NCBI RefSeq assembly: GCF_033153115.1
Contig: NW_026889803.1
Span: 62,992,001 to 63,056,000 of the forward strand
DNA length: 64,000 bases
Source: Saccostrea echinata
Taxonomy: Eukaryota
Direction of reading: 5' to 3'
The notes under the pieces were generated by a model that was not told where the DNA came from, ran no database searches, and saw only the letters and a program-made list of their open reading frames with translations. Both the position numbers and the translations under genes were made by a program. Shown here in pieces: positions 26,591-59,389 of this stretch (position 1 is its first letter; every line of letters starts with the position of its first letter).

Positions 26591-28804
26591 ATGGGGATAT
26601 CTGGATTAACAACCTTTATGGATGATAATCTTCATCTTCTGAAGGAATGGCGTCTGCATGATACCAAGGTGGTTATTGATGGTAATAATCTGTACCATCT
26701 TATCTTCTACAACAATCATGTAGATTTTCTGCATGGAGGAGATTATGATCAGTATGCCAGAAAAATTAAAGAATTTTTCACTCTCCTTCAATCCTGCAAC
26801 ATTCAGCCTTATGTTGTGTTTGATGGTGGATATGAGCAAGATGACAAAAAATTCCACACGATTTTAGGAAGAGTGCAGCAGAGACTTGAAATGGCTATCC
26901 GTCTAGCAAAGGGACAGAGGGGCAAAGTAATGCCGATCCTGGCCTATGAAACATTTAAGGAAGTTTTGTTACAAATACACATACCTTTTGCTGTGTGTGA
27001 TTTTGAAGCTGACAAAGAAATTGGAATCTTAGCTAATGATTTTGACTGCCCTGTTTTGTCATACGACAGTGATTTCTACATTCTGCCACTAAGTGCTGGT
27101 TTTATTCCATTTGACAGTGTTAATTTTACATTGCAAGAAAACACCAGAGAGGATGGTACTGCCTATCATTACCTGCCTGCCCGGAGGTACCATGTTGACA
27201 ATTTTGTGAAATTCTTCCCTTCCTTAGGAAGAGATGTTTTACCGTTGTTGGCTGCCCTCCTTGGAAATGATTATGTGGATATTCGTATTTTCCAGTCATT
27301 TTATTCATCAGTCAGATCGTATGAAGGAAGAACACAGTTTAGAATTCCAAAGTCTCATTTGAAAATCCAAAAGGTAATAAGCTGGCTAGAAAGTTTAGAG
27401 TCATACAAGGAAGGAATCGAAAAACTTATGGAAAGTGCAGGATCACCAGCACAGAAAGAGACCATTTCAGTAGCCATAAGAAAAACTATTGAAGCATTTA
27501 CAACCAGTGCAACTGATTCTGGATGCTCTCTTCATAAGTTCTTCAGAGATAATTATAGTACAGAAATGCAAAGTTTAGAGGTAAAAGTACCCTCTAGCTG
27601 GAATTTGGTCCAGGGCTATAATGGGTCAGTGATCCCTAGTTGGTTTTTACCCAGTCATCGACAGGGAATCCTTCCTCCCAGCTTCTTGGACGTCATAACA
27701 TTGCACAGAATATTTCTCTTACTCCAAGTGGAACATCCAAAATCCCAGTCGTCACATCAATGTTCTCTTAAACTAAGGCAGCTAATGTATGGAATTCTTC
27801 TTTCAGAGGATATTGCTGGTCTGGAAAAGAATGATGAGGTAGTGGTAAGCAGAAAATGTGGTGTAGAGGAGTATGATAGAGTTGGACTGGATTTAACCAA
27901 AAAAATTGTATTACCGGCCCGTGCTTTTGAAGGATATGGTCCGGTGCCAAGGCTTCCTGCAATACCAGACCTTTTATCCTCCTATAAAGAGAACTTCCTC
28001 CGTCAGGCACTAAACATACCACTCTTTGACACAGAGCACATGACTAAAGATCTTGAGCTTGTTTTAGGAATCATTCTATACTGGGTCAGGAATGCCAAAC
28101 CAAAAGTAACAGTTTATCATTTACAGGCTGCTGTGGTCTGTCTGATTATGTTGAAAGTAAAGTGGGTACTTATTCATCGTGGGCCTACAGGGACCAGGGA
28201 GAATCTGATAGAGACAGCTGTTCTGGAAACACCTACAGAAACTGTAAAGGAAGTCAGGACCAGGCTTCATCCATACAATGCAAGGCCTGAACACAGCAGC
28301 AAACACCCTGTAGACAGCGAACTGATCCATGGATTTGCTCAGTTCCAGTCCTGTATTCTGGTTGCTTTGCAATTTAACTTTCTTCTTCAGTGCCCTTTCC
28401 CTAGTCCCTACACTCCTCACATATTCTCTGGAACTTTTCTGTATAATTTTTGTCAAGAGCTTCAGAAGCGAAGAAGTCCAGACCTGTTTATATGTGAAAT
28501 GCTTGTGAAGGACTCCAAGCTTCCACAGGTTTACCAGTGCCTTTATGATGTATTGATAAATTCTCTTGAACCAGATGGTTTACTCTCTGACTCTAAATAT
28601 AAGAAGAGAAACAAATCTCACAAAGACAAGGGAAAGAAAAGCAAAAGGAATGCATCTGGTTCTAGCAATTCAAAAAGTCTGGAACTCTCCCCAGAGGTGG
28701 AAAAGAAAACTAAATTACAGGTGCGATACGTGGCAAACTGTCAACTGACCAACAGATTTGCGGGTCTGGTCTTAAGTGATGACAGCCAGGGAGAAAGTGA
28801 CTAG
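26591..28804 (+). CDS. ASTE1: Protein asteroid homolog 1 (XPG/FEN1-family PIN-like nuclease), single coding exon
   Basis: 737 aa with MGISGL, VIDGNNLYH, GGDY, VVFDGG, FEADKEI, SYDSDFY and LLGNDY motifs. A splice acceptor at 26570 lies just upstream of the ATG. Confidence 0.92.
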   Translation: MGISGLTTFMDDNLHLLKEWRLHDTKVVIDGNNLYHLIFYNNHVDFLHGGDYDQYARKIKEFFTLLQSCNIQPYVVFDGGYEQDDKKFHTILGRVQQRLEMAIRLAKGQRGKVMPILAYETFKEVLLQIHIPFAVCDFEADKEIGILANDFDCPVLSYDSDFYILPLSAGFIPFDSVNFTLQENTREDGTAYHYLPARRYHVDNFVKFFPSLGRDVLPLLAALLGNDYVDIRIFQSFYSSVRSYEGRTQFRIPKSHLKIQKVISWLESLESYKEGIEKLMESAGSPAQKETISVAIRKTIEAFTTSATDSGCSLHKFFRDNYSTEMQSLEVKVPSSWNLVQGYNGSVIPSWFLPSHRQGILPPSFLDVITLHRIFLLLQVEHPKSQSSHQCSLKLRQLMYGILLSEDIAGLEKNDEVVVSRKCGVEEYDRVGLDLTKKIVLPARAFEGYGPVPRLPAIPDLLSSYKENFLRQALNIPLFDTEHMTKDLELVLGIILYWVRNAKPKVTVYHLQAAVVCLIMLKVKWVLIHRGPTGTRENLIETAVLETPTETVKEVRTRLHPYNARPEHSSKHPVDSELIHGFAQFQSCILVALQFNFLLQCPFPSPYTPHIFSGTFLYNFCQELQKRRSPDLFICEMLVKDSKLPQVYQCLYDVLINSLEPDGLLSDSKYKKRNKSHKDKGKKSKRNASGSSNSKSLELSPEVEKKTKLQVRYVANCQLTNRFAGLVLSDDSQGESD

Positions 28805-32110: not shown

Positions 32111-34304
32111 TTGGGTAAGACTCTGGTAAGTTATACGCTATCTATATGTGATCACTATAAATGTTTTCACATAGGTTGAAGTGATAAATTCTTATTTACT
32201 GATTAAACTGAGATTTCGACAAAGTGGAAGTCCGCGTCGAAGCACATTTTATGTTAAGACCGCGGAATATTAACTGGCAAGATTGGAAATATACAGTCAA
32301 AACATTTAATGATAGACAATGAAATGAGCGCGGGCGTCTGAGAAAACTTTGGATTGAATTTCTAGTTCGAAATTCATTTTCAATCCACCTCAGCTACTCT
32401 CATACACACAGTGTTACTGATTGATCCAGAAGACACATAATATCTATTTTGGAATAGTTTGAAATTATATGAATCAAAACTTTTATGACCAATGTTAATT
32501 TTTAAAGAAATGAATAGTTGACGACCTTTTGATTCGTGTGTGGGAGAGGGGACTGGCAGGTCTTGTAAATAAACAAGAAAGGTTAGGTTTTGAGTTTTGA
32601 CATCCTCGCTCCCCATCCTCTCAGCCCTGATGGTTTTGTTTGTTATACATTTTTGTCAGTGTAGATCAAAATAAATAATATCTCTTTATCCTAGAAATAA
32701 ATATACAATGTACTCTATTTTGTGAAGACGTGAACAGAAATAAATTTACCCCCCCCCCCCCTTTAGAACTCCTTGGCCGTGTCCTGAAACTTGTATATCT
32801 GTAACTTGCGTGTCTTTAAAAAATATTGGATAGAGATTCGGATCTAAATTAGTTTTAAAATAATTAGGAATTGAACTTTTTGTCTTTCGGATAAAAAAAA
32901 TTAACACAGCATATGAAAATAGCAAAGGTTGATTGAAAATCAACGTCTATAAACTAGAATTTCAATCCAGTGTTTTTTCTGACGTTCGTGACGAATTGTA
33001 TCCGTTCATTTCATTGTATATCATCAAATATTTTACTGCAACAAATGGAAATGACTAAGCTGCATATTACCCATCAAGCCATGCGCGGATCTGGGGATGT
33101 GTGTGTAAATCTACCTGTAACTAAAAAGGTTTCTCAGTATATAGAAAAAAGATCCAGATTGTCAACATGATAATAAGAATCGTCAGATAGAATAGACAAA
33201 CATGGTCCTAATCATATTTCATTATCCTTGTGCTGTTATAAAATTTTATCGTCAATGAAACAAAATTAATTACTCATTGAAATGAAGTTCATTATTATCA
33301 ACAGAACATCCTTCTCCGTCATGTCCAAATAAAAACCTCCGAGGATTTTTCTCGACTTGACGGAAAAGCTTTTGCATCTTTATACATTCAGTGCCTACGT
33401 CACAAACAATTATCATTACAATGACCTCTATGACGTCATATACAAAGATCTTAAACGTCACAATACGCCGTAGCAACTTTGTTTAGGAAAGTTTGTAAGA
33501 ACATTGGCAAAATGCTGGAAAGCATTAGAAAAGCGCTGGTAAGTTACACGCTTTCTTAATGCATGTATACTTTGTAGCTGTATGTAACCCTTCTGATCTC
33601 AATATTTTTCACAAAGTTCTTGTTAGATATTTATCGTTAATTAGACTGTTTTCAACATGAGCCTGCCTAAGCACATTTAGACATTAGATCGAACTTTTTT
33701 TTCTATTTCCTTAATTAATCTACTCTCCTACAGAGAGTCGAAAGTTTTCCCAACAATTTTCGGAAAAAAATTTAAAAAAAAAACATTGTGAAGGGAAATA
33801 TTTATCGGGGAATTTCTTTACCACACTTTGTAATCAAGATACACTAAGATGTAATTCATTAATGACGATAGTACCAGTAAATTCTTACTAGCTCTGTACG
33901 TATGTTACATAATCCATGCAGTTTATCTAAGTTTTAAAAAATATCGTATTTCTATCTTTTGAAGTTTACAAAGAAATATGATATTTCAAAAACTGCTGAT
34001 ATTAGCTGCATTATGTTTGAATTTCAAATCATATTAAGACTGGTTTAAAAAGAACACACAATACACCAAAGGCGTCATCTTGAAACTGTCTTTTGGTTTG
34101 ACAAAAACGCCCGCTTTAGCAGGGTTGGGGGGGGGGGGGCTTGAGTGATTCCTGGAAGTCTCTGATCTGGGTACCTGTAGTTTCGGCATTTTTGTTGGCA
34201 TTATTATAATCATCTAACAATTCACTAGCTGCACCATGTAAATCAAACCAGAAAACTATCAACAGTGTTCACATGTGAGACTCGGTTCATCTCTCCCCTC
34301 TCTT

Positions 34305-35420: not shown

Positions 35421-36276
35421 TTATTAATTCAGTAATTTATGTCTCTTTTGTATAATGCACATAATGAATAATGGCATCCCACCCACTAAGACACCCAAAG
35501 CGGGGGGCCACAATTCTTGGAAGAACTACGCACGCTTACATTTTACACCCATTTAATTCATTACTATAGACAATTTTGCCATTAAAACTACTTTGCATGA
35601 AAAGAAGAGTTCAATTGTCATTGATTAATAATTTTAAAATGTGTCAATAATTAATTACTCTTAATTACAACACTTTTTATAATGGGGGGGGGGGGGTTAG
35701 ATGATGTTTTCCATTGAAATCAGTGTTTTAAAAAAACATCCCCAGGTTTTAAAATATTCTTGGATATTGATAAATGTCCCTTAAATCTGTTTGTTCGAAT
35801 AACTCCTGTAAAATTAAACATATATGATTGATTAAGTACAATTTCTTAGTTGTAAACCCCTTTGAAATTTTTGATAAAATGATCACTTTTGCTGTTTTTG
35901 TCTGTAAACATATGTTTCCCCCCATGAAACAACAAAAGCTTTGGTATAAATTTGCTAAATAACAATTCTCAATACATGTAAAAAGGAATTTTTGTTTCGG
36001 GGGGGGGGGGGGGTTAAAAACATTTTCCGTTTTCAAAATTTATATAGTTATCTCTCTTTGTTTTCCCAAATAAGTAATGTTTTGTGTAAATCCATATAAA
36101 TATCTATATAAATATGAAAAATCAATCAAGTATGTTAACTTTTGAAAATTGACTTGGAGGTAGGCGGGAGAACAATACTATTGTTCGCAGTTTGCTTGTT
36201 TACTTTTTCAACTTCTCTAGAAGAAATAAACTAATGCATAGTGTAGACATATGTCTTTAAATAACATTTGAAGACC

Positions 36277-36307
<31 letters not shown>

Positions 36308-37579
36308 AACATGTGAAAGCTCAAAAATATTTTTTTTAAGAACAACAACTTCAGAACAGCGGGACCAAAAACTAGTTACATTTTCTGAGTATATGCAAGC
36401 ATCTACGGGTAGTGTAGATTCAAGTTTAACTCAGTCTCTACTGGGTTTCACAATAGAAGATCAAGATTCTACATGGAACACAATTTTTAAAATCTTCTCA
36501 AGAACAACAGGACTAGGATATGTCTTATCATTTAAAATTCTAAGTTTAATTTATTAATATTTTCAACATGTAGATTGTGAAAAATGTTGCGATTCTATAT
36601 AGAATAAAAGTCATTGTTGTAATCATTTTTGTATGGCTGCATGATGACTTTTTTGCTGGTCAACTGCATTAAATATAGAATTAATTTATTTATTTTCAAG
36701 ATTTCACCAGGATCACAGCACTTTTCAAAAAGCTTACTATTTCTAGAATTGATGTGTGAATGTTTACACGTACTTTGATCCAATGAGTGTTTGCCCTTGC
36801 ACTAGAACGATTTATTAAGATCCTTACATTATGACAGTATACTAGAAAATGTACGGAAAATATATCAATAAAATCATAAAATAGACAATTGCATCCAAGC
36901 TAACGGCCTCTTAGATATCTGCGAATAATATTTTATTTGATTATAAAAAAAATTTCGTTGTGAAAATATTACTTGATCGGCCTCTCACTGCATATAAACT
37001 CCGGCAAGTTCTACGAAATGACGCCATATCGACAAGTGCAGCGATCATATACCTTGATATGTGGGGTTTAACTCCCGATAAAATACCATATTATAGTAAG
37101 TTTTAATGTAGTTTAATTTTCTTTTACAGTTTAAAATCGCAAATCATTTCATTTTGTGGTATTTTAAAGAAATTTAGATTCCTGTGATGTTATAGTTAAT
37201 TTCCCGTATAAATTAGGCCCTACCTCCTTTTTGTGGCCTTAACTGTGCTACGATGTGTAAAGAGGGAAAAGCTGTTTAAAAGTTTCTTTTAAGAAACAGC
37301 AAGATGACTCAGGTGAGCGATATGGCCCATAAATAGGCATCGTCATTATCGGCCGCAGCAGCGGCCGGTCTATTTGTGGTTGTGTTAGAATGTGCACATG
37401 GGGAAATGAGACTTTATTTTTTCATTGCTTTAATGGAATAATTCCTTACTGATAACATACATAAAAGTTATAAATAAAGATTTTAAAAATTTGCTTAATA
37501 TGGTTGTTATAATGTTTCAATTTGTTTTTCATTCCCCATCAGATATCAATTAATTTATGATGTTATAAAAAGTTGTTAC

Positions 37580-40500
37580 ATGATCTGCTCCCCAACATGG
37601 GCGAGGGTAAGATATAAAAGCAAAAATTATAAAGTTTCCGGATATGAATTGCAGTGCCTAAACTAATTAATAATTGTAAGAAGTTTAAGAATCGCATTTT
37701 GTTTTGAATACACTACAACTGCAAATGACACAATGATTTGTTTTCCTGCACTTTATATTTATTGTGATTCATATCATCGGCATTACCACGTGACAAAGAT
37801 CCAGGGTATCAGCACGTGAAGTTTCTACATCCTTTTTTTGTCAGCATCCAAGCATTCATAATAAATATTTTTTTTATATTTGTCTTCTTATGCCTCCTAT
37901 CTTCATATCTATGACTTTTCATACCAACTTAACACGAATCCGCGTTTTCTAGGGGGTCCAAGGTCACTTCTAGTTGGTTTAGTACATATATTAAATAACT
38001 CTACAAATTCCAGAGGGGGGGGGGGTCCGGACCCCACCAACCCCCAACCCCCCTCTAGACCCATGCTTGTAAAACATAACTTATTTTGGAAAACAAAGAG
38101 ATATACGTCTTTAATTTGAGAAAATTTTTCACCATAGAAATTGTCGGAAAATGGAAATTGATTTTCAAAACATCCTCCCCCGCGAAACAACAAACAACAA
38201 ATCCTTTTTTCAGTTTTTCTGAATTGAAAACGTTATTTCACAGATTCATTCCAAAGGTTTTGTTGTCTCACGGGGGGGGGGGGGGGGGGGGGCACGTGTC
38301 TAAAGATTAAAAACAGGAAAATAGTCATATTTACTTTATCACTTTATCAATCTCATATGTTGAATTTTACATAAGTTAAACATACGGTGAGATTTAATTA
38401 AGAGCCATTTATCCATCTCCATGAGTATTTGAAAATCTGGTGATGTTTACGTTTTCAGCCTGATTTCAATTGAAAAAATTTTCTACCCCCTTATGAAAGG
38501 AGTTGTAAATAAGAGCAATTTACATTTTGTCACTGGTTTTTAAATTTTAATTAATTAGTAGGGTTTTGAGATTAAATACAAAATCAACACTAATATATCC
38601 ATTTCTCGCATCAATTTTCTTTTACATCTTCTGAAGAAATGTCATTTATAAATTCATAGAAGTCCCCCTCTGCGTCCATGTTTTTTATCTGTCAGTCAAG
38701 ATCACAGGTTCCTGAGTAACATGACTATATATGTATAATTTTGCGTTATAACGCGAAAGTTTTGCGTTTATTCACGAAAATTTCGCGTTATAACGCGAAA
38801 GTTACGCGTTATAACGCGAAAGTTACGCGTTATAACGCGAAAGTTACGCGTTTATTCGCGAAAACATATAGCTAATTTTAATGTTAAGCATGTGTGTCTG
38901 TTCTAATAACACTCAAGCGTGCCCTAAATTCTTACGTAGGCAAAAAAGGTCTTTTTAGCTCACCAGAGGCACTTTCGGTCAACTTTGGCCTGAGATTGTT
39001 AAGAAATCAGTAGTGAATGTTGGATTGTAGAACCTCTGAACCGTTCAAGACAAACGTAAAAGCTTTGTAATGAGTGAACTTTCAAGTTTCTAGTGTTGAT
39101 TATATCAATATACCAAATTACCCACGATTTCTTGTCATGTCCCCAGACCTAAAGAGGATCTATAAAAGTGGGCCAAGCTTTGACATAGGAATATATAGGA
39201 AAACTCCTTAAAACACACTTTTCAAGGACAGAAATGTTAAAGTAAGTCTTTTAAAATTATTTGTTCACACCATGGCCCTAGCAGCTAGGGCAGGCGCGGA
39301 TCCAGAATTTTTTTTCCAGGAGGGTCCACCCCAGTCACAAAATAAATTTCTAACTAGAAATTTCTTGACAAGCATTAAAAAAAAACTAATTTCCCTTCCC
39401 AAACGTATTAAACGCAGAAAAAAAAAAACCAAACAAGAAAACAAAAAACAAAAACAAAAAACAAAAAAACCTCGTAAAATCCATAACCCAGAGGTGAAAA
39501 AAACATTTCGTGGTGGCGATGGTGGGGTCCACTTTTTCGGGGGGGGGGGGGTTGTTCCAAAGTCATTTTTTATTTGCTTCAGTATCTTTTTTATAATAAA
39601 TCTGCAAATTCCAGGGGGAGGGGGTCCGACCCCCCTCCCCGACCCCCATCTAGATCCACATGTAGGGTAGGTCAAATTGAAAGGGGATCAAAGGTTTACA
39701 TTATCAAAGGCGGTCATACCGATATATGTTTAAGTTTGTTCAAAACATGGACCCTGGATGAGGTTTGGCTATTTTGGGGGGAGGGGGTTAAGTTGATCTG
39801 ATCAAGAAAAGGGGGGATCACAGTTACATGTATAGTTGCTATACTCGAATAACAATTTAATGACGATTCAAGTTTTTTTTTTTCAAATCTTGCCCTTTCA
39901 AATTTGGAGGTAAAATATGGGATCAAAGAGTCACAATATGGGGTCAATTTTACCAAGGGATATATTTGGAAAATGCTTTATAAACTTTTTCAAGAAGTTT
40001 ATCGTATAGATTAACAACCATTCACACGAAGTGTTACACTGAGTGTATATTCAAGTTTGATAAAGTATTTGCGTCCGGGGCAAGAGAGAGGCAACAATTT
40101 AAACCAATACTGGTGACCAAAGCACTATATGGGAATAAACAGGAAAAATTAATAGAATCTTCTAAATACAGAAGTGCCGAGGTAACTTGAGAAATTGCTG
40201 TGGCGGTAATGTGCCCCTTATTAATTGTACATATAAATACATACTTCATTGTAAATACCCTCTTCAGTTACACTTTGTAAAAAAATATTTTTTAAAATTT
40301 TTTAATATCTTTTTTCAGTTGGTGGAAGAGAAATACATTAAAATATTTGATAGTGTGTTGGCTGAGTTGATGAAAGTTGTAGATATGGTAATATTTAATA
40401 CTGTTCATCATAATATGTAAAATGTACATAATCACAAGTAACAATTGAGTCTTAGAAATCGAATAATTGCAAGAAATTCAAAACAGAATACATGTATCTA

Positions 40501-45778: not shown

Positions 45779-48700
45779 ATGTAAGTAAATTCATATTATA
45801 TGTTGTTAGATTTTTTTCTCTGCTTTATTAATCACATTCCCCATTTTTCCCTCTTTATCAATTTTTGTTCTCATCCAACGATGGAAAGTTGGCAATCATA
45901 AAAAGTGAAAATTCATTCATTGATCATGATGAATTGAATCAGAAAATGAGTGTTCTTGAAAACATCTATTAATCCAAACATTGTAATACATGAAATGTTA
46001 AGTAAGGTAGTCTATCAGCCATGAGTACTGATTTTAAACAATAGTGATTTTCATGTCAATCATTGGACTTTGTCTATAAAACTGTGTTTCGTTTAACACC
46101 TTTTATCTATAAACCTTATGTAAAATTGCTAAGCTTGATTTGTTTAAAGTATGTCTTATATATTTAGATAGAGATTTAAAACATCATTTTTTTTCCTTAT
46201 AACTGTACAACTTTAAATAGAAATGGTAAACTAAGTTTGAAATCTAGCATGGACTATATTTTTGGCGGAATGGTGGCGTATGAAAATATCTCCTTTTCTG
46301 CCTCTCAAAATTACTACAGAACAATGAATTTAGTTAGTAATTTTAAGTAATTAAAGACTTAAAAGAAATTTTCTTTTGTTACTAAAAATAATGATTATGG
46401 CCTAAAGTTTATCAAGTAAATATGATTTTCTAAACAAACTTTAATCTTTTGAAAGCTTCCAATCTAAGTACGGATTTGAACAAAAAATCAGTAATTTTTC
46501 TTCTCTCTCTCTTAGTAAACGTTCAAAACTTTTGATTTTATATCATTTTGTATCTTTATATGACTAATTTACCATATATGAAAATAAGAAAGATTTAAAT
46601 ATACAAAGCATACAATAATAACTAATATTCCCTAAATATTTAAGAAAAATAGAGGAAATTCGGATTAGCCAATATCTATGTTAATTAAATTGTGTATGTC
46701 AGTTTCGTAGTATCATGTGATAGACCCTATATGGTAACATCTTTTAATGTAAAAAGAAAACGATTTTATTTTTTGAAATAAAAGTAGGCATCACATGATT
46801 TGCAACAGTTTGTTTTTTATTTTCAATGTCAAGGAAAAGATAATGACCATGACCTGACCTTGCTTCGGAAATAAAACGGTCAAACTTGATTTAATTGATA
46901 TTATTACTTAGTGATACTGTCTTCTTCAATCTATGTAAAGTTCATTAATTTTTTAATATAAGAAATATGAGAAGAATCCCTCCTTAATGATTTAAAAAAA
47001 ATAATGAGAATAAATATTGAGATTTGAAGCAATTTTGAATTACACATGAAATCAAATTGACGTAAACTCATTTTATTCTTAAAACAGAGGGGATATGTTT
47101 ATAAAAAGTAATGTTCAGATTAATAGATTAAGAGCCCTCTTTCCATCCCTATCTCTCCTTCTTTCTCTCTTTCTCATCATGATATGTTGAATATATACAG
47201 TGTTTTATTTCTCCTTTTTCAGATGAAAAGTGGATACTCTGTCAAGAACTAAAGAATATTAATTATCATTCTATGTAAAAGAGATTTAAATATCAATGTA
47301 TAACTTGCCTTTATTAAAGAATATTTGGAACCCAGGAGGGGACACCCGAGCTATTTTTACAGGTTTTCGCTGGTTTGGCTGATAATTAACTTTTTTTCTT
47401 TTGACCTTTTTTCTCTAAATTTATATAATGTGGGCCTCATACATAAGAGGCTTGCATTGCAAAAGTGACTTATTCTAAATTTGTCTTTGGCTTTTCTTTC
47501 TGGAAACGAGGCAAGTGAGGCAGATCTCTTGCCGAGTTACCAGAGCAAAATTACTTCAACAATTTTGGAACTTTAGGCCTTTCAGGGAGACCCATTTTAA
47601 CCAGGGTTTCCCTGTCTAAAACCATTAAATTGTAAATACATCCATTTAGAGATGTTAAAAGCTCCGTTGTCCTCTCCTGTCAAAAAACTGCTTATATTTA
47701 GTTTAAAGTAATATATTTCTGTCCATACTGTATGTGCTAAAGTTTTCAATACTTGATGCGTACTTTTAAATAAATAAACCAATGTTTGCATACTTATTAT
47801 CGACTTTGTTTTAAATTATGAATTCAAAATACATGTAATTGATTCAAAGGAAACTTAGTTATAAACTCTGTGCATACTTGTTAAATCTGAAGAAGCCGAG
47901 AGAGTATGATGAATTCATAATTATGACATCCATGTGTATGAATAGATATAAGTCTGGTTATCATTGAAGTGATATATACCAGGGGTATTCTTTCTGTATT
48001 CATCCTCTAAGAGAGCATCGTTATTGCCTAAATGACTGTACATATTGTCGTCCATTATGCCGGCGAAAAATAAGGCTCGTCTCGGCACATATTGTCGCCG
48101 GCGACAATATGTACCAATGGACGACAACATGTGAAGTGAGGGTAATTGTACAGAACGACAATATGTATCGTCACCCCCCCCCCCCTCATTTTTTTCTTTT
48201 TCCAAAGTTGACGGGCTGATATGGCTGAAACAGCGGCTTTTTTCCGTAGTTTCAGAGACGAGTATTTATTTCCAATGAAATAAATCAATAACAATGAATA
48301 CTAGTGACACATTTATTAGGTACATGAATAAATCTACATATCCAATGACAAGGAGAAGGTAAAAGAGAGGCGAAAATACAACATTAATAAATAACTGACA
48401 CACATCTTTAAAAAAAAAATACTAGTATACATGTCCTTGATATACTTATGTAAAAAAAAAAAATAATAATATGAACATGTAGATTATAAATCATAGCACA
48501 GAAAACAAAGCAAAATATAACATACAGTAACCAAACGATCAAGATTTTCATGTTTCTTATCTCTAAATACAAGTATAAATGCATTAAGAAAATATCATAT
48601 TCATTGTTTGCAATTAGGCTATGCAATGTGGTTGATAACATGAAAAACTATAAGAACATCAAATTTTTTTTTTCAAGAAAATCGAATACATACATTTATT

Positions 48701-55188: not shown

Positions 55189-56659
55189 TGCTTTCCCCTA
55201 CAGTGATTATTTTTCTAAATGTTGATGTGTCCGTCAGTCGTCACTTAGCACTAGTTCAATCAACAGAAAACTCTATAGGTGTGGTACTTTTTTTTAAAAA
55301 ATGGTATTTCTTGTCTGTAATCTTAAGCAAATCTTTAACATAAGCAGATTTTAAAATACCCATGGATATGAATAAATGAGCCCTAATTTTTTTTCCGCAT
55401 GTTTAACTCATGTAAAGTTAAACATATTAGATTGATGAAGTACATTTTCATAGTTGTAATTTCTTCTGAAATTGGTAAGAAAATGAACATTTGCGCTGTG
55501 TTTTTTTTTTATCTCCTTCCTTCATATTTTTAAAATACTTGGTACGTGAGAGGTTCAGTTTGCCTGGACATAACGATAGAAACATTCAACACAAGCCGTA
55601 ATACTTTCACCAAACTGAGTCCCGTATTTTCTTTTGTTAGTTTTTCTTTCTTTCTTTTTTCGCAATACTAGTAGATAGAGATGCATCGCCCTAGAGTAAG
55701 AACAATGAGACGAGGGAGTGTCCAAGCGAAATAAATCTTACTCTGGCTCTCTTGTAATTTATAGCTTTGCTCTCCTGCGCTCTTTAAACCTATAAAAGTA
55801 CTTCCATAAATCATCAAAACTTTGAGTCGGATATTGTACTTTATTCTTTATATGCTCACAGAAAAATTAATGAATTCTTCCAATCTCTTGCCAAGTTTCA
55901 TCTTGTTAACAGGGCAATTCATATTATGTTGATAGGCCAATACACGTGACATTCTGTACTTATGATAAAACTACTGTAAATTTTTTATCACAAAGACTTA
56001 GAGAGATGAAGAACTCTCTAAATTATTCTTCCTCAAATTTTCCAAAGACAAACATTTATCTCCAACTAGAGGAATCAATGCAACGAATGTACAAGGTATA
56101 GGAGAAAATTTTATTGAGGTACATCATGAATATACATCTGTATATAAATCAAATGACAATCAGTCGACAGGAAATTCAATTCAACATATAAGATTACTGG
56201 AAAAAAATCAAACAAATATGAATTTAATGACTGTTCTCTTTTTACATTATACATGTATAAATTATCTATGAATATGAACAAAATATTGAAATAAAGATAA
56301 TAAATCATGCAAAATAAAAGCAAGCCTTCACAATCCAGATATTTAATATATCCATGCAATACATGTACAAATGATCTGTTCCTACTGAGAGATACAGGTT
56401 TCCACGACAATAAAAATCATTGTTTACAAATGGGATGATATTTGAAAAACAACATAAAAAACAATGAACTTTAAATTAAATTCCAAGAGAAATGGATACA
56501 TAAACATCACGTAAAAATATTGAAATCTTGCCTTGATCACGACAAAAAGTTTGAAATTTGTTATGAAAATTACGGAAGGCAGTCTAGAGTCAAGAATCAA
56601 GAATCAAACTAAAAGAAATTTCAATTCCGTTTTTCATGGTTATTTTTTCCGGTGGTGGT

Positions 56660-59230
56660 CTACCATGGACAATCACGGAGACGTTTTCCTCTGAGAACAG
56701 GTCTGAAGGCAGCAAAATCCTTCCCCAATTTGCGTGGAAACTCTGGCGAAAGAAAATGCGCTCTTTCATGACGATATCCTTGGCGACGCAGCATTCTTCG
56801 ATAATGAGGCTCAAAATCACGGCCACGGGGTCTTCCCCGGAAGACATCTCGACCACATCTTCTTCCCTGGAGTGCATTTTCTTGGTTGTGAGTACTGCAC
56901 TGCTTGAAAATTCTGCAAATTTTCCGTGCTAGCTTTCTAGGCCTAATTTTCATGTCGTCATTCATTTTAACTTTTAAAGTGAGAACTCCGAAGTCGTGTT
57001 CTATAACTCTGCTTTTTTTGCCATGGCAGGTACCATCTTTGTGCGTAGCACGGTTGCATTTTCTTTGACCTTTCTCTTCTATGGGAGTTTCATCTTCTTC
57101 CATATTTTCCTGGTTTTTATTTTTATTTTCTTGTGACTCATTGAGAATCCCCTTATCTCCACATCCGTGCTTGCAGTGATATTTTCTTGCTTCTTCAGAT
57201 TGATTATTTTCATCTGACCCATCATCTTTATAATGATGTCGACGATTTCTGCATTTTCTCCTTTCTTCCCCTTCCTTACCATCCTTGATAGTCATGGTTT
57301 CAACAAGTTCAGAAATCCCAGGCTCCGTATCGTATTCATTCCGGGATGTCAAAACATCAGATTTCTTCTACTCTTCATTTGCAAGCATTGTGGCTCTTCT
57401 TCGATAGCTTTTACAGCGCCGGCCAAGACATTTTTTCTCTTTTCCACCGGCAGAATCTGTAGAAGATTCACAGACATGTATAGGCAAACCATTCACCTTA
57501 AACCTCAGGAAAGACTTTCTATTTCGGTTTCTACCTGGTCTGCATCTCTTACTAGCTAGCATCTCGTCGTCCTTTTCTCGTCTGCACACAGCAACAGATG
57601 CTGAGCGCCTGCATCTTTTTCCTTTTCCATGCATCATCAAACTGAATTCCCTAAGGTTTTTTCCATACAGACGAGTAGGTGGAGCTGACCTTGCTCGTCT
57701 GCAGGACTTCTTCTCTCGGCAATATCCTCTAACATTTTCCCGATCTCTCCTTGAGTGGCAATTCTCATTGACCACCGATGCACCGAAATGTCGGACAGGG
57801 CGCTGATCGTGTCTCAGACTCCAGCGATCCCTGTTCCAGCGGTACCAGCCACCAGTCATTTTTGGACAAGTTCTACTGGACACTGGAATCTGGTCCCCAT
57901 CTTGACATGTTAACGACCATTGTTGTCGTCTGCCACACCGGTATCCATGATTGTTATCCCCAGGGTGATCGAATTTTTCGCGATTTTCTACTTTGCGACG
58001 TAAGTACCTCCGCGTTCTTTTTTCGGAGGGAGGGTGGTCATTCATCAGTTGTTTTCTTAACCTTGGAAATGACACAGGACTTTGGCCATTGTCGAAACTT
58101 TTCCAATGACGTCGACGACGCTGCCATCTCAGGGGACAGAACTCGTCCGAAGTCAGATTATCCTTCAATAAAAATGAAACTTAAGATTACGATTTAGATC
58201 TTTGAATATGTACCTTGTTACAGTATGAGATTGTACATCAAAATTAAAGATTAAACAGTGAAACACTGTTTGATTTTCAAGATTCACAACCGATAATACG
58301 ACATTCATATAACATGATGAATCCTGAAGAAAGAGCTGATTGTAGACAGTCCGCCTTACTATTCGACATGTGAGCACATTTTCAAAATTGGATCTTTTTA
58401 TGCATTAAAAGCTTTTTATACTCGGAAAAAAATTCAGTTTATAACTACATGTATTTCTGACCAAGGAACAAAAACCAAAATGAATAAGAAATAAAATGGA
58501 AAAAAAAAAAAAATCATATTTTACCATTTCATTATCACCTCTGTGGTCCGTTCCCTCCTTTCTCGAGTGATCTGTAAAACACATCATTGCAATAGTCAGA
58601 TGATAACATGTAACAGTTTTTAATTTCTCAAAAATATGATAGTTAATTAAGAACAGCTATAATCAATATTTTACATTTGTATTTACCTTCAATTCTTTGA
58701 AGAAAAATTCTCAGGGTCTCCTCGTTTGCGCTCTTCGTCGCCTCTCGGAACTCCTCATCACTCGACATTGTGATTAGGTCACTCTCGTCATCTGCAATAT
58801 TGTTATATAAATATTTAAAATATTTTTATAAGGATTATTTCAGCTATAGGTTAAACACCACTTCAAGGAAAATGTTCTGGGGGAAATTACAAAAGCTGTA
58901 ATTAATATGAACTTCTGTTTACTCATTCCGTGCACGGATTTGCATTTAAGTTCATCTGCATTCATTAAACTTTCCATAACTTGACAATGAGTACTAAAAT
59001 ACCCAATGTTGTAAAAAAAAAAAAAAAACAAACAAACTTTCGGGAACCAAATGGTTGATAAAAAAGACAAATATCTTACCTTTCCAATAGAGCGTATAAG
59101 TTCCAGTGGTCTTTCCAAACAATTCTGACACCTTTCTCTCAAATTCAGCAAAATCTGGTTGATTTTCCAGCGTCATCCGTCTTATTTCTGGCTCTTCGGC
59201 AGACATCAGGGTTACTTTCACTTTTATCAT
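56660..59230 (-). pseudogene. PB1-basic-tail protein, copy B, with an in-frame TAG at 57370-57368 (truncated gene, pseudogene or null allele)
   Basis: Exons 59230-59080, 58791-58687, 58571-58525, 58162-56660 are colinear with copy A. The frame continues after the TAG to the same DCPW* end. Confidence 0.75.
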
Positions 59231-59389
59231 GATTTGTTGATACACGTGGTTTTGTTTACAAACAAATAGCTCCTTGAATTAATTTACTTTTAACAAGAAA
59301 ATTTTAACGGTACCTTTTTGGAGTTTGATAGTCTTATACGTTCAGCTGCTATCAAATATTCACCTCGGCGCTTCTACGCTCAATGGCGC

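What the first reader, a model, noticed from the sequence alone, without database searches (positions are those of the whole stretch)
40319..45780. Exon-shuffling chimera: three ASPM IQ-repeat exons slotted in frame into an orphan all-phase-0 micro-exon gene
Seen: seven short exons (30-93 nt, e.g. KEEKGTNKKKE, KEESIEKKKQ), then 1068+150+138 nt of ASPM-like IQ repeats with their introns, then EEEIQEEKEKPKKLS and KMKRFRKWLKRTFSCSR*. All introns are phase 0 and no stop interrupts the frame. The E/K-rich micro-exons on both sides look like one original gene. ASPM's CH and C-terminal domains are absent. Inference: DNA-level capture of an ASPM segment (segmental duplication or Helitron transduction), which creates a calmodulin-binding protein or an optional cassette.
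Basis: partly seen in the sequence, partly recalled or inferred. Interest (0 to 1): 0.72.

Follow-up and report, generated by a model that had tools for sequence, protein, structure and literature searches.

The report
Oyster gene family carrying borrowed ASPM
In a rock oyster, a piece of the cell-division gene ASPM was copied into an unrelated gene with no known relatives outside the genus; the hybrid is spliced, has multiplied to about nine to eleven loci and is kept intact by selection in this copy's branch, and it likely holds the calcium sensor calmodulin at a membrane.

Summary
The window holds a 633-codon gene: eight short host exons, three ASPM-derived IQ exons and two host exons, all 12 introns phase 0. 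Assembled contigs of public runs join host to IQ exons at both ends. The intact parent ASPM lies on another contig, so this is no misassembly and no normal ASPM. The capture is old (dS about 0.45) and happened once: 9-11 loci carry host exons beside IQ exons, and the lineages share a junction intron. Correction: the first IQ exon is only the 3' third of ASPM's 3.3-kb exon, entered by a new acceptor made by a 68-bp deletion. The window's clade is under purifying selection (omega 0.51 for IQ, 0.25 for host exons); another clade is not (0.86). No whole IQ-less host gene was found here, and the skip isoform was not seen. Function is inferred: a multi-IQ calmodulin-binding rod with a basic, cysteine-ended tail. 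A known kind of gene birth, with an unreported donor.

The parts
   Evidence: ATG...|GT, phase 0; homologous exon in 3 paralogues; NCBI model P0003 of the C2 paralogue starts with it. Its junction was not tested on reads.
40319..40387 (+). host exon e1 (23 aa)
   Evidence: joint to 40618 in X2, X3, X6
40618..40671 (+). host exon e2 (18 aa)
   Evidence: joints on both sides
40797..40889 (+). host exon e3 (31 aa)
   Evidence: joints on both sides; conserved in paralogues
41000..41053 (+). host exon e4 (18 aa)
   Evidence: joint from 40889; conserved in paralogues and in IQ-less P0021
41793..41879 (+). host exon e5 (29 aa)
   Evidence: splice signals; conserved in paralogues and P0021
42053..42085 (+). 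E/K-rich micro-exon e6 (11 aa)
   Evidence: splice signals; also in P0021
42184..42213 (+). E/K-rich micro-exon e7 (10 aa), similar to e6
   Evidence: joint 42213>43128 in X2, X3, X6
42846..42889 (+). alternative upstream exon piece (5' end unknown) spliced to 43128; would give an IQ-only protein from an internal ATG
   Evidence: one contig of run X1 (tables 5c and 8); NCBI model P0001 (465 aa) starts inside the IQ exon
43091..43127 (+). new splice acceptor: host-side pyrimidine tract joined to a formerly exonic AG by a 68-bp deletion
   Evidence: alignment to the C54:56.75 Mb paralogue
43128..44195 (+). IQ exon 1: 3' third of the 3,276-nt ASPM IQ exon, with a 156-nt in-frame deletion at 43558/43559
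   Evidence: 81-83% identity to G000:C25:4301652-4300425; Pfam IQ
44319..44468 (+). IQ exon 2, same length and boundaries as the ASPM exon
44681..44818 (+). IQ exon 3, same length and boundaries as the ASPM exon
44819..45187 (+). 3' junction intron, shared by the chimeric lineages and not alignable to ASPM
   Evidence: scores 100 and 62 against shuffle maxima 59 and 50; 22 against ASPM, shuffle mean 21.6
45188..45232 (+). host exon e11 (15 aa, E/K-rich)
   Evidence: joints on both sides in four runs
45725..45780 (+). last coding exon: basic helix ending in a conserved Cys, then stop
   Evidence: Cys kept in 11 of 11 copies; joints
47223..47790 (+). non-coding last exon (3' UTR), AATAAA at 47769
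   Evidence: joint 45780>47223 in four runs; X1 contig runs to 47789

Best explanation
This is a spliced chimeric gene in which the IQ-repeat part of ASPM, copied once at the DNA level, sits in frame between unrelated phase-0 micro-exons, and its protein likely works as a membrane-tethered rod that binds many calmodulin or related EF-hand chains. Shown: exon structure, splicing at both junctions, the separate intact ASPM, the family of copies, purifying selection in this copy's clade. Inferred history: one duplication of at least 4.3 kb of ASPM (from about nt 260 of the large exon to just past the second small exon) landed in an intron after e6/e7; ASPM's phase-0 boundaries fitted at the 3' side, and an AG inside the ASPM exon became the acceptor at the 5' side; the hybrid then duplicated, and deletions between IQ units reset repeat number and moved the acceptor while keeping the frame. 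Inferred function: about 18 IQ motifs load calmodulin; the basic tail with its conserved Cys would anchor the protein by charge and S-acylation; lacking ASPM's ASH and CH parts, it would act away from the spindle as a local calmodulin store or a calcium-sensitive spacer for the five-helix N-terminal domain.
For: Junction contigs in three studies; X2's contig matches the window at 129 of 129 letters where the nearest paralogue differs at 7. One ASH-domain match in the genome, at C25, with the rest of ASPM beside it. Exon lengths of 150 and 138 nt are the same as in ASPM. Fifteen IQ copies form one clade against ASPM and an outgroup, support 88/89; the junction intron is shared. dN/dS window vs ASPM 0.35 (95% 0.26-0.45), 446 codons, no stop; 0 of 1000 neutral simulations at 0.22 changes per site kept the frame open. 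After the capture: omega 0.51 for the IQ part among four close copies (P 3e-5 against 1) and 0.25 for host exons (P 2e-7). Motif glutamines kept 17 of 17 against 24 of 32 other glutamines (P 0.04); the decayed C1 copy keeps 8 of 12. Tail Cys 11 of 11, Trp 10 of 11. ASPM IQ repeats are implicated in calmodulin binding (PMC10436222 and PMC374243, passages).
Against: No binding, localisation or protein evidence. The clade support of 88/89 is under the tool's bar for a starred branch. The C16/C6 clade has omega 0.86, not different from 1 (P 0.38), and several copies are broken. IQ core positions as a group are only weakly more conserved in the window (0.80 vs 0.70, P 0.09). The tail's hydrophobic moment is not above shuffles (7.6-23% reach it). 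Introns inside the captured piece do not align to ASPM above shuffle maxima in single-pair tests. Run types are guesses, and contigs show no expression level. No whole IQ-less host gene was found in this genome.
Confidence: 0.5

Rival explanations
1. The IQ piece is used as a long charged helical spacer, one of several exchangeable repeat cassettes after exon e6, and calmodulin binding is incidental.
For: P0021 from a Saccostrea record has e4-e5-e6 followed by five 28-aa charged repeats in place of IQ. IQ length varies freely among copies: about 160 to 470 codons.
Against: Motif glutamines are kept better than other glutamines: 103 of 106 vs 151 of 219 over seven copies, which are not independent.
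Confidence: 0.2
2. The working product is the short IQ-only form, which competes with ASPM, myosins or other IQ proteins for calmodulin; the N-terminal exons matter little.
For: Run X1 has one contig from an exon ending at 42889 through to the 3' UTR; NCBI's model P0001 starts inside the IQ exon.
Against: Host exons are the more constrained part (omega 0.25) and are joined to the IQ exon in three other runs.
Confidence: 0.1
3. The family is a set of transcribed duplicates in decay, with selection only in the past.
For: C16/C6 clade omega 0.86; frameshifts, stops or insertions at C22 unit 2, C2:9.88, C3 and C1.
Against: The window copy is intact over 633 codons; omega is below 1 on branches younger than dS 0.17-0.18; 2 of 1000 simulations stay open at 0.087 changes per site.
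Confidence: 0.12
4. The two flanks were never one gene: the N-terminal exons, the IQ piece and the tail came together from three sources.
For: P0021 joins e4-e6 to the 3' half of a second micro-exon family whose members here (C25:23.0, C30:15.6 Mb and others) show none of e0-e5 or e12 in the stretches read. No e5-to-e12 gene without IQ was found.
Against: All main lineages carry both flanks; both families end in a basic helix; e11 is E/K-rich like e6 and e7. This rival changes the history, not the predicted function.
Confidence: 0.25
5. Misassembly, or a normal part of bivalve ASPM.
For: None found.
Against: Complete ASPM at C25 with other neighbouring exons; 18% divergence from it; same layout at several loci; independent junction contigs.
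Confidence: 0.01

Closest known systems
[quoted passage not shown]
   Same: Donor of the IQ exons: 81-83% DNA identity, two shared exon boundary sets. NCBI names four of these models 'ASPM homolog'.
   Different: No ASH, CH or C-terminal region; unrelated N- and C-terminal exons; multi-copy, whereas ASPM is single here. The NCBI name is therefore misleading.
Chimeric genes by partial DNA duplication and exon shuffling of class 0-0 modules (PMC3632108, abstract and section 14 seen; classic cases recalled, not checked)
   Same: Donor introns retained, phase-0 fit, in-frame fusion, later duplication.
   Different: The 5' break is inside a donor exon and at least four different acceptor positions are used among lineages (read support only for the window's). 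The donor is a conserved mitotic gene and the host has no known relatives outside the genus.
GAP-43/neuromodulin-type calmodulin stores (recalled, from no call)
   Same: IQ motif plus a basic, cysteine-bearing membrane anchor, as predicted here.
   Different: One IQ and an N-terminal anchor there; about 18 IQ motifs and a C-terminal tail here; no homology. A functional analogy only.
P0021 (XP_062574901.1, a Saccostrea record; species name cut off)
   Same: Exons e4-e5-e6, E 8.9e-9 against 1.84 billion representatives; basic C-terminal helix.
   Different: No IQ; five 28-aa repeats and a 3' half shared with a second micro-exon family.

Membership tests
ASPM orthologue | N-terminal ASH domain | tested here: not met
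   PF15780 has one match in the genome, at C25:4336273, none near the window
ASPM orthologue | Calponin-homology domains | tested here: not met
   Pfam finds only IQ in P0003, a full-length paralogue model, and in P0004; the non-IQ parts of the window model are 166 aa before and 32 aa after
ASPM orthologue | IQ-repeat array | tested here: met
   PF00612 E 4.8e-42; 17 of 18 aligned motifs still match
ASPM orthologue | Conserved C-terminal region | tested here: not met
   tblastn with the C-terminal part of P0005 found nothing in the window or the other fetched loci, while the C25 exons were found with P0015
Chimeric gene by DNA-level partial duplication | Intact donor elsewhere and donor intron positions kept | tested here: met
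Chimeric gene by DNA-level partial duplication | Fused, in-frame spliced transcript | tested here: met
   joints 42213>43128 and 44818>45188 in contigs
Chimeric gene by DNA-level partial duplication | Second parent (host) existing without the donor piece | tested here: inconclusive
   Only e4-e6 in P0021 and lone exons at C33, C6, C36, C5; no whole IQ-less gene
Classical symmetric exon shuffling | Both breakpoints in introns, donor exons whole | tested here: not met
   5' edge lies inside ASPM's 3,276-nt exon in every copy that has it
Classical symmetric exon shuffling | Same intron phase on both sides | tested here: met
   phase 0 at both junctions
Helitron-mediated capture | TC...CTRR ends with a subterminal hairpin around the captured piece | tested here: inconclusive
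   No strong inverted repeat at the edges; two CTRR-T words without further sign; at dS 0.45 such ends would be eroded
Calmodulin-binding IQ protein | Binds calmodulin or an EF-hand light chain | not tested
   Motifs present and their Gln conserved; no binding result
S-acylated membrane protein | Cys next to a basic amphipathic helix, acylated in cells | not testable with these tools
   Cys 11 of 11; hydrophobic moment not above shuffles

The most novel reading that the evidence does not exclude
Rock oysters have an all-phase-0 micro-exon system in which one N-terminal helical domain and a membrane tail take exchangeable repeat rods: ASPM IQ repeats in this family, 28-residue repeats in a relative. 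The IQ form would be a new membrane-bound calmodulin reservoir whose capacity is tuned by repeat number, built from a mitotic gene.
Probability: 0.2. Interest if true: 0.75.

Novelty: new member of a known kind. Interest (0 to 1): 0.52.

Why it matters
It is a well-resolved case of gene birth in which donor, breakpoints, later splice-site turnover, expansion and partial decay can all be read in one genome. ASPM IQ number has long been discussed in connection with calmodulin and brain size, with little direct test (PMC374243, passages). Natural IQ arrays freed from the spindle-binding parts, in several lengths, give material for asking what the array does alone. It also shows that several 'ASPM homolog' annotations in this oyster are not ASPM.

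Tried and rejected
Misassembly and normal ASPM: rejected. Retrocopy: rejected, introns are at donor positions, and no intronless copy appeared. Search for host relatives: region searches found only P0004 itself among 416 candidates and none of 39 shorter ones; the profile search found 3 proteins among 1.84 billion; metagenome scan 0 of 592 pattern hits confirmed; Atlas hits all under 0.9. Host-part searches left 539 aa and longer uncovered in the 90% collection. Pattern search for e4: 10 hits, 6 at known loci, 4 without any host exon by profile; last-exon pattern: 4 of 4 at known loci. Fold of the N-terminal domain (two-row alignment, pLDDT 69.8, five helices): no Foldseek match at E 0.001, best Z 6.1 with rmsd 6.0 over 106 residues, not meaningful for a helical bundle. 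No listed holder is on record as RNA. The skip 42213>45188 is not among 15 joints shown; 17 were not shown. The first-exon junction and the skip remain untested on reads. No complex prediction was obtained. Homology of the intron upstream of the IQ exon to ASPM's exon: not above shuffles in 3 of 3 tests. Literature searches listed no report of this family; only listings were seen except for the three papers cited, and subscription journals and supplements were not covered.
Full report
OBSERVATION. A further 27-nt coding exon at 33512-33538 supplies the start; its homologue begins NCBI's model P0003 of a paralogue. The 13 coding exons give 633 codons with no inner stop, and 12 of 12 introns are phase 0. 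Database labels name the organism Saccostrea echinata.

SPLICING. Contigs of four public runs from three studies were laid on 36000-48000. Fifteen of 32 joints were shown. They include 8 of the 12 coding introns and a 3' UTR intron (45780>47223). The host-to-IQ joint 42213>43128 stands in X2, X3 and X6; the IQ-to-host joint 44818>45188 in all four. X2's contig matches the window at 129 of 129 letters where the nearest paralogue differs at 7, so it is this locus. Also seen: skipping of e11 (X2, X6); an alternative exon ending at 42889 (X1), which fits NCBI's IQ-only model P0001; and in X6 a joint from the last IQ exon back to an e3-like exon, which fits the internally duplicated C22 gene at 13 of 14 letters. 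Run types are guesses and contigs give no level. The skip of all IQ exons was not among the rows shown.

DONOR. The ASH domain has one match in the genome (C25:4.336 Mb). The ASPM gene there has a 3,276-nt IQ exon, then exons of 150 and 138 nt, then the C-terminal exons. The window carries nt 2054-3276 of the large exon, less 156 nt, and both small exons with the same boundaries. No C-terminal ASPM sequence was found in the window or the other fetched loci. Kept intron positions mean a DNA-level copy.

FAMILY. The IQ piece matches many places. Host exons lie beside it at the window, C54:56.74 Mb, C22:5.45-5.50 Mb (two IQ units in one gene), C2:9.86 and 9.88 Mb, C16:23.00 and 23.41 Mb, C6:15.32 and 15.75 Mb, and, with 3' exons only, C54:44.15 Mb and C3:7.55 Mb. 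The C16 and C6 loci are mostly 93-98% alike over tens of kb and may be haplotypes, so the count is 9 to 11. A decayed IQ piece with 7 stops and no host exon lies at C1:30.14 Mb; it was left out of the tree. Fifteen IQ units form one clade against ASPM and an unnamed outgroup protein, at 88/89. The intron after the last IQ exon is shared by the window, C2 and C16 but does not align to ASPM, and the intron before it is shared by the window and C16 (75 against a shuffle maximum of 63); three other pairs of that intron were not above shuffles. One capture is the simplest reading. dS to ASPM is 0.42-0.59 for all 16 units, about the same as between lineages, so the family split soon after the capture.

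THE 5' EDGE. No copy uses ASPM's own acceptor. C16/C6 enter at about nt 260 of the large exon and lack nt 578-2466; C2, C54:44.15 and C54:56.7 enter near nt 1985-2000; the first C22 unit near nt 2820; the window at nt 2053. The window's acceptor arose by a 68-bp deletion that put the pyrimidine tract next to an AG that is exonic in the C54:56.7 copy. All six acceptors read by eye are phase 0; only the window's has read support, and NCBI's P0003 uses a later site than the one I read at C2. This is not classical shuffling of whole exons: the 3' side used donor splice sites, the 5' side was improvised and re-improvised.

SELECTION. Window vs ASPM: dN 0.156, dS 0.447, ratio 0.35 (0.26-0.45), no stop in 446 codons. 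Among the window and three close units omega is 0.51 (P 3e-5 against 1); for host exons of three loci 0.25 (P 2e-7); for eight C16/C6 units 0.86 (P 0.38). Neutral simulations keep the frame open in 28, 2 and 0 of 1000 runs at 0.05, 0.087 and 0.22 changes per site. IQ glutamines are kept 17 of 17 against 24 of 32 other glutamines (P 0.04); the wider IQ core is only weakly favoured (P 0.09).

HOST. The N-terminal part has no Pfam family and is predicted as five helices with no fold match. A profile search of 1.84 billion representatives returned 3 proteins: two of these chimeras and P0021, a Saccostrea protein with e4-e6 but no IQ. P0021's 3' half belongs with a second family of phase-0 micro-exon genes present here at C25, C30 and C5, which showed no e0-e5 or e12 in the stretches read. 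The last exon is a basic helix with Trp (10 of 11) and a terminal Cys (11 of 11).

MECHANISM. History (confidence about 0.85): one partial ASPM duplication into a micro-exon gene, then birth-and-death expansion; the carrier is unknown and no Helitron ends were recognised. Function (about 0.5 with the history): about 18 IQ motifs bind calmodulin or related chains, as reported or proposed for ASPM (PMC10436222, PMC374243; passages), and the tail would hold the rod at a membrane. The anchor is inferred from recalled knowledge of basic-plus-Cys tails; the hydrophobic moment test did not support it. Rivals: inert spacer, IQ-only competitor, decaying duplicates, three-source origin.

NOVELTY. Chimeric genes by partial duplication are a known kind. 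Nine literature searches listed no report of an ASPM-derived family in oysters, and the scan's earlier notes held none. NCBI has models at four of the loci under the name 'ASPM homolog', three of them partial. Verdict: real, new member of a known kind, interest 0.52.

Noticed in passing
window 938-2404 (+): Single-ORF Cys-loop ligand-gated ion channel gene, nicotinic-receptor-like (Pfam Neur_chan_LBD and Neur_chan_memb).
   Followed up: partly
window 26594-28801 (+): Single 735-aa ORF with a weak XPG_N match (E 8e-4); looks like an asteroid homologue (name recalled).
   Followed up: partly
window 48855-50450 and 56663-59278 (-): Two paralogous Arg-rich ORFs with no Pfam match; the second is split by a stop near 57370 and has an upstream exon that looks PB1-like by eye. 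Both keep a second, similar open frame overlapping their 3' ends (48833-49111 and 56593-56928), so the true reading frame is unclear.
   Followed up: partly
G000:C25:23.02, 23.42, 23.91, 18.43 Mb; C30:15.63 Mb; C5:13.22, 13.98 Mb: A second multi-copy family of phase-0 micro-exon genes with 28-aa charged repeats and a basic C-terminal helix; related to the 3' half of P0021.
   Followed up: partly
G000:C16:23.004-23.012 Mb and relatives on C16 and C6: The IQ exon and the two small exons are each duplicated inside one gene, giving two IQ units and two pairs of small exons.
   Followed up: partly
G000:C3:7558352 onward: A 1099-aa retrotransposon-like ORF lies between the IQ exons and the last exon of a family member.
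   Followed up: no
G000:C36:2380790 and C5:1123655: Near-identical pieces resembling exon e1 with a stop, followed by sequence that may be a spliced remnant of the next exons.
   Followed up: no
window 46138-46990: A high-copy repeat of about 850 bp in the 3' UTR intron, absent from the C54:56.75 Mb paralogue.
   Followed up: no
G000:C6 against C16 and C33: Long stretches at 96-99% identity suggest uncollapsed haplotypes or recent duplications in this assembly.
   Followed up: partly
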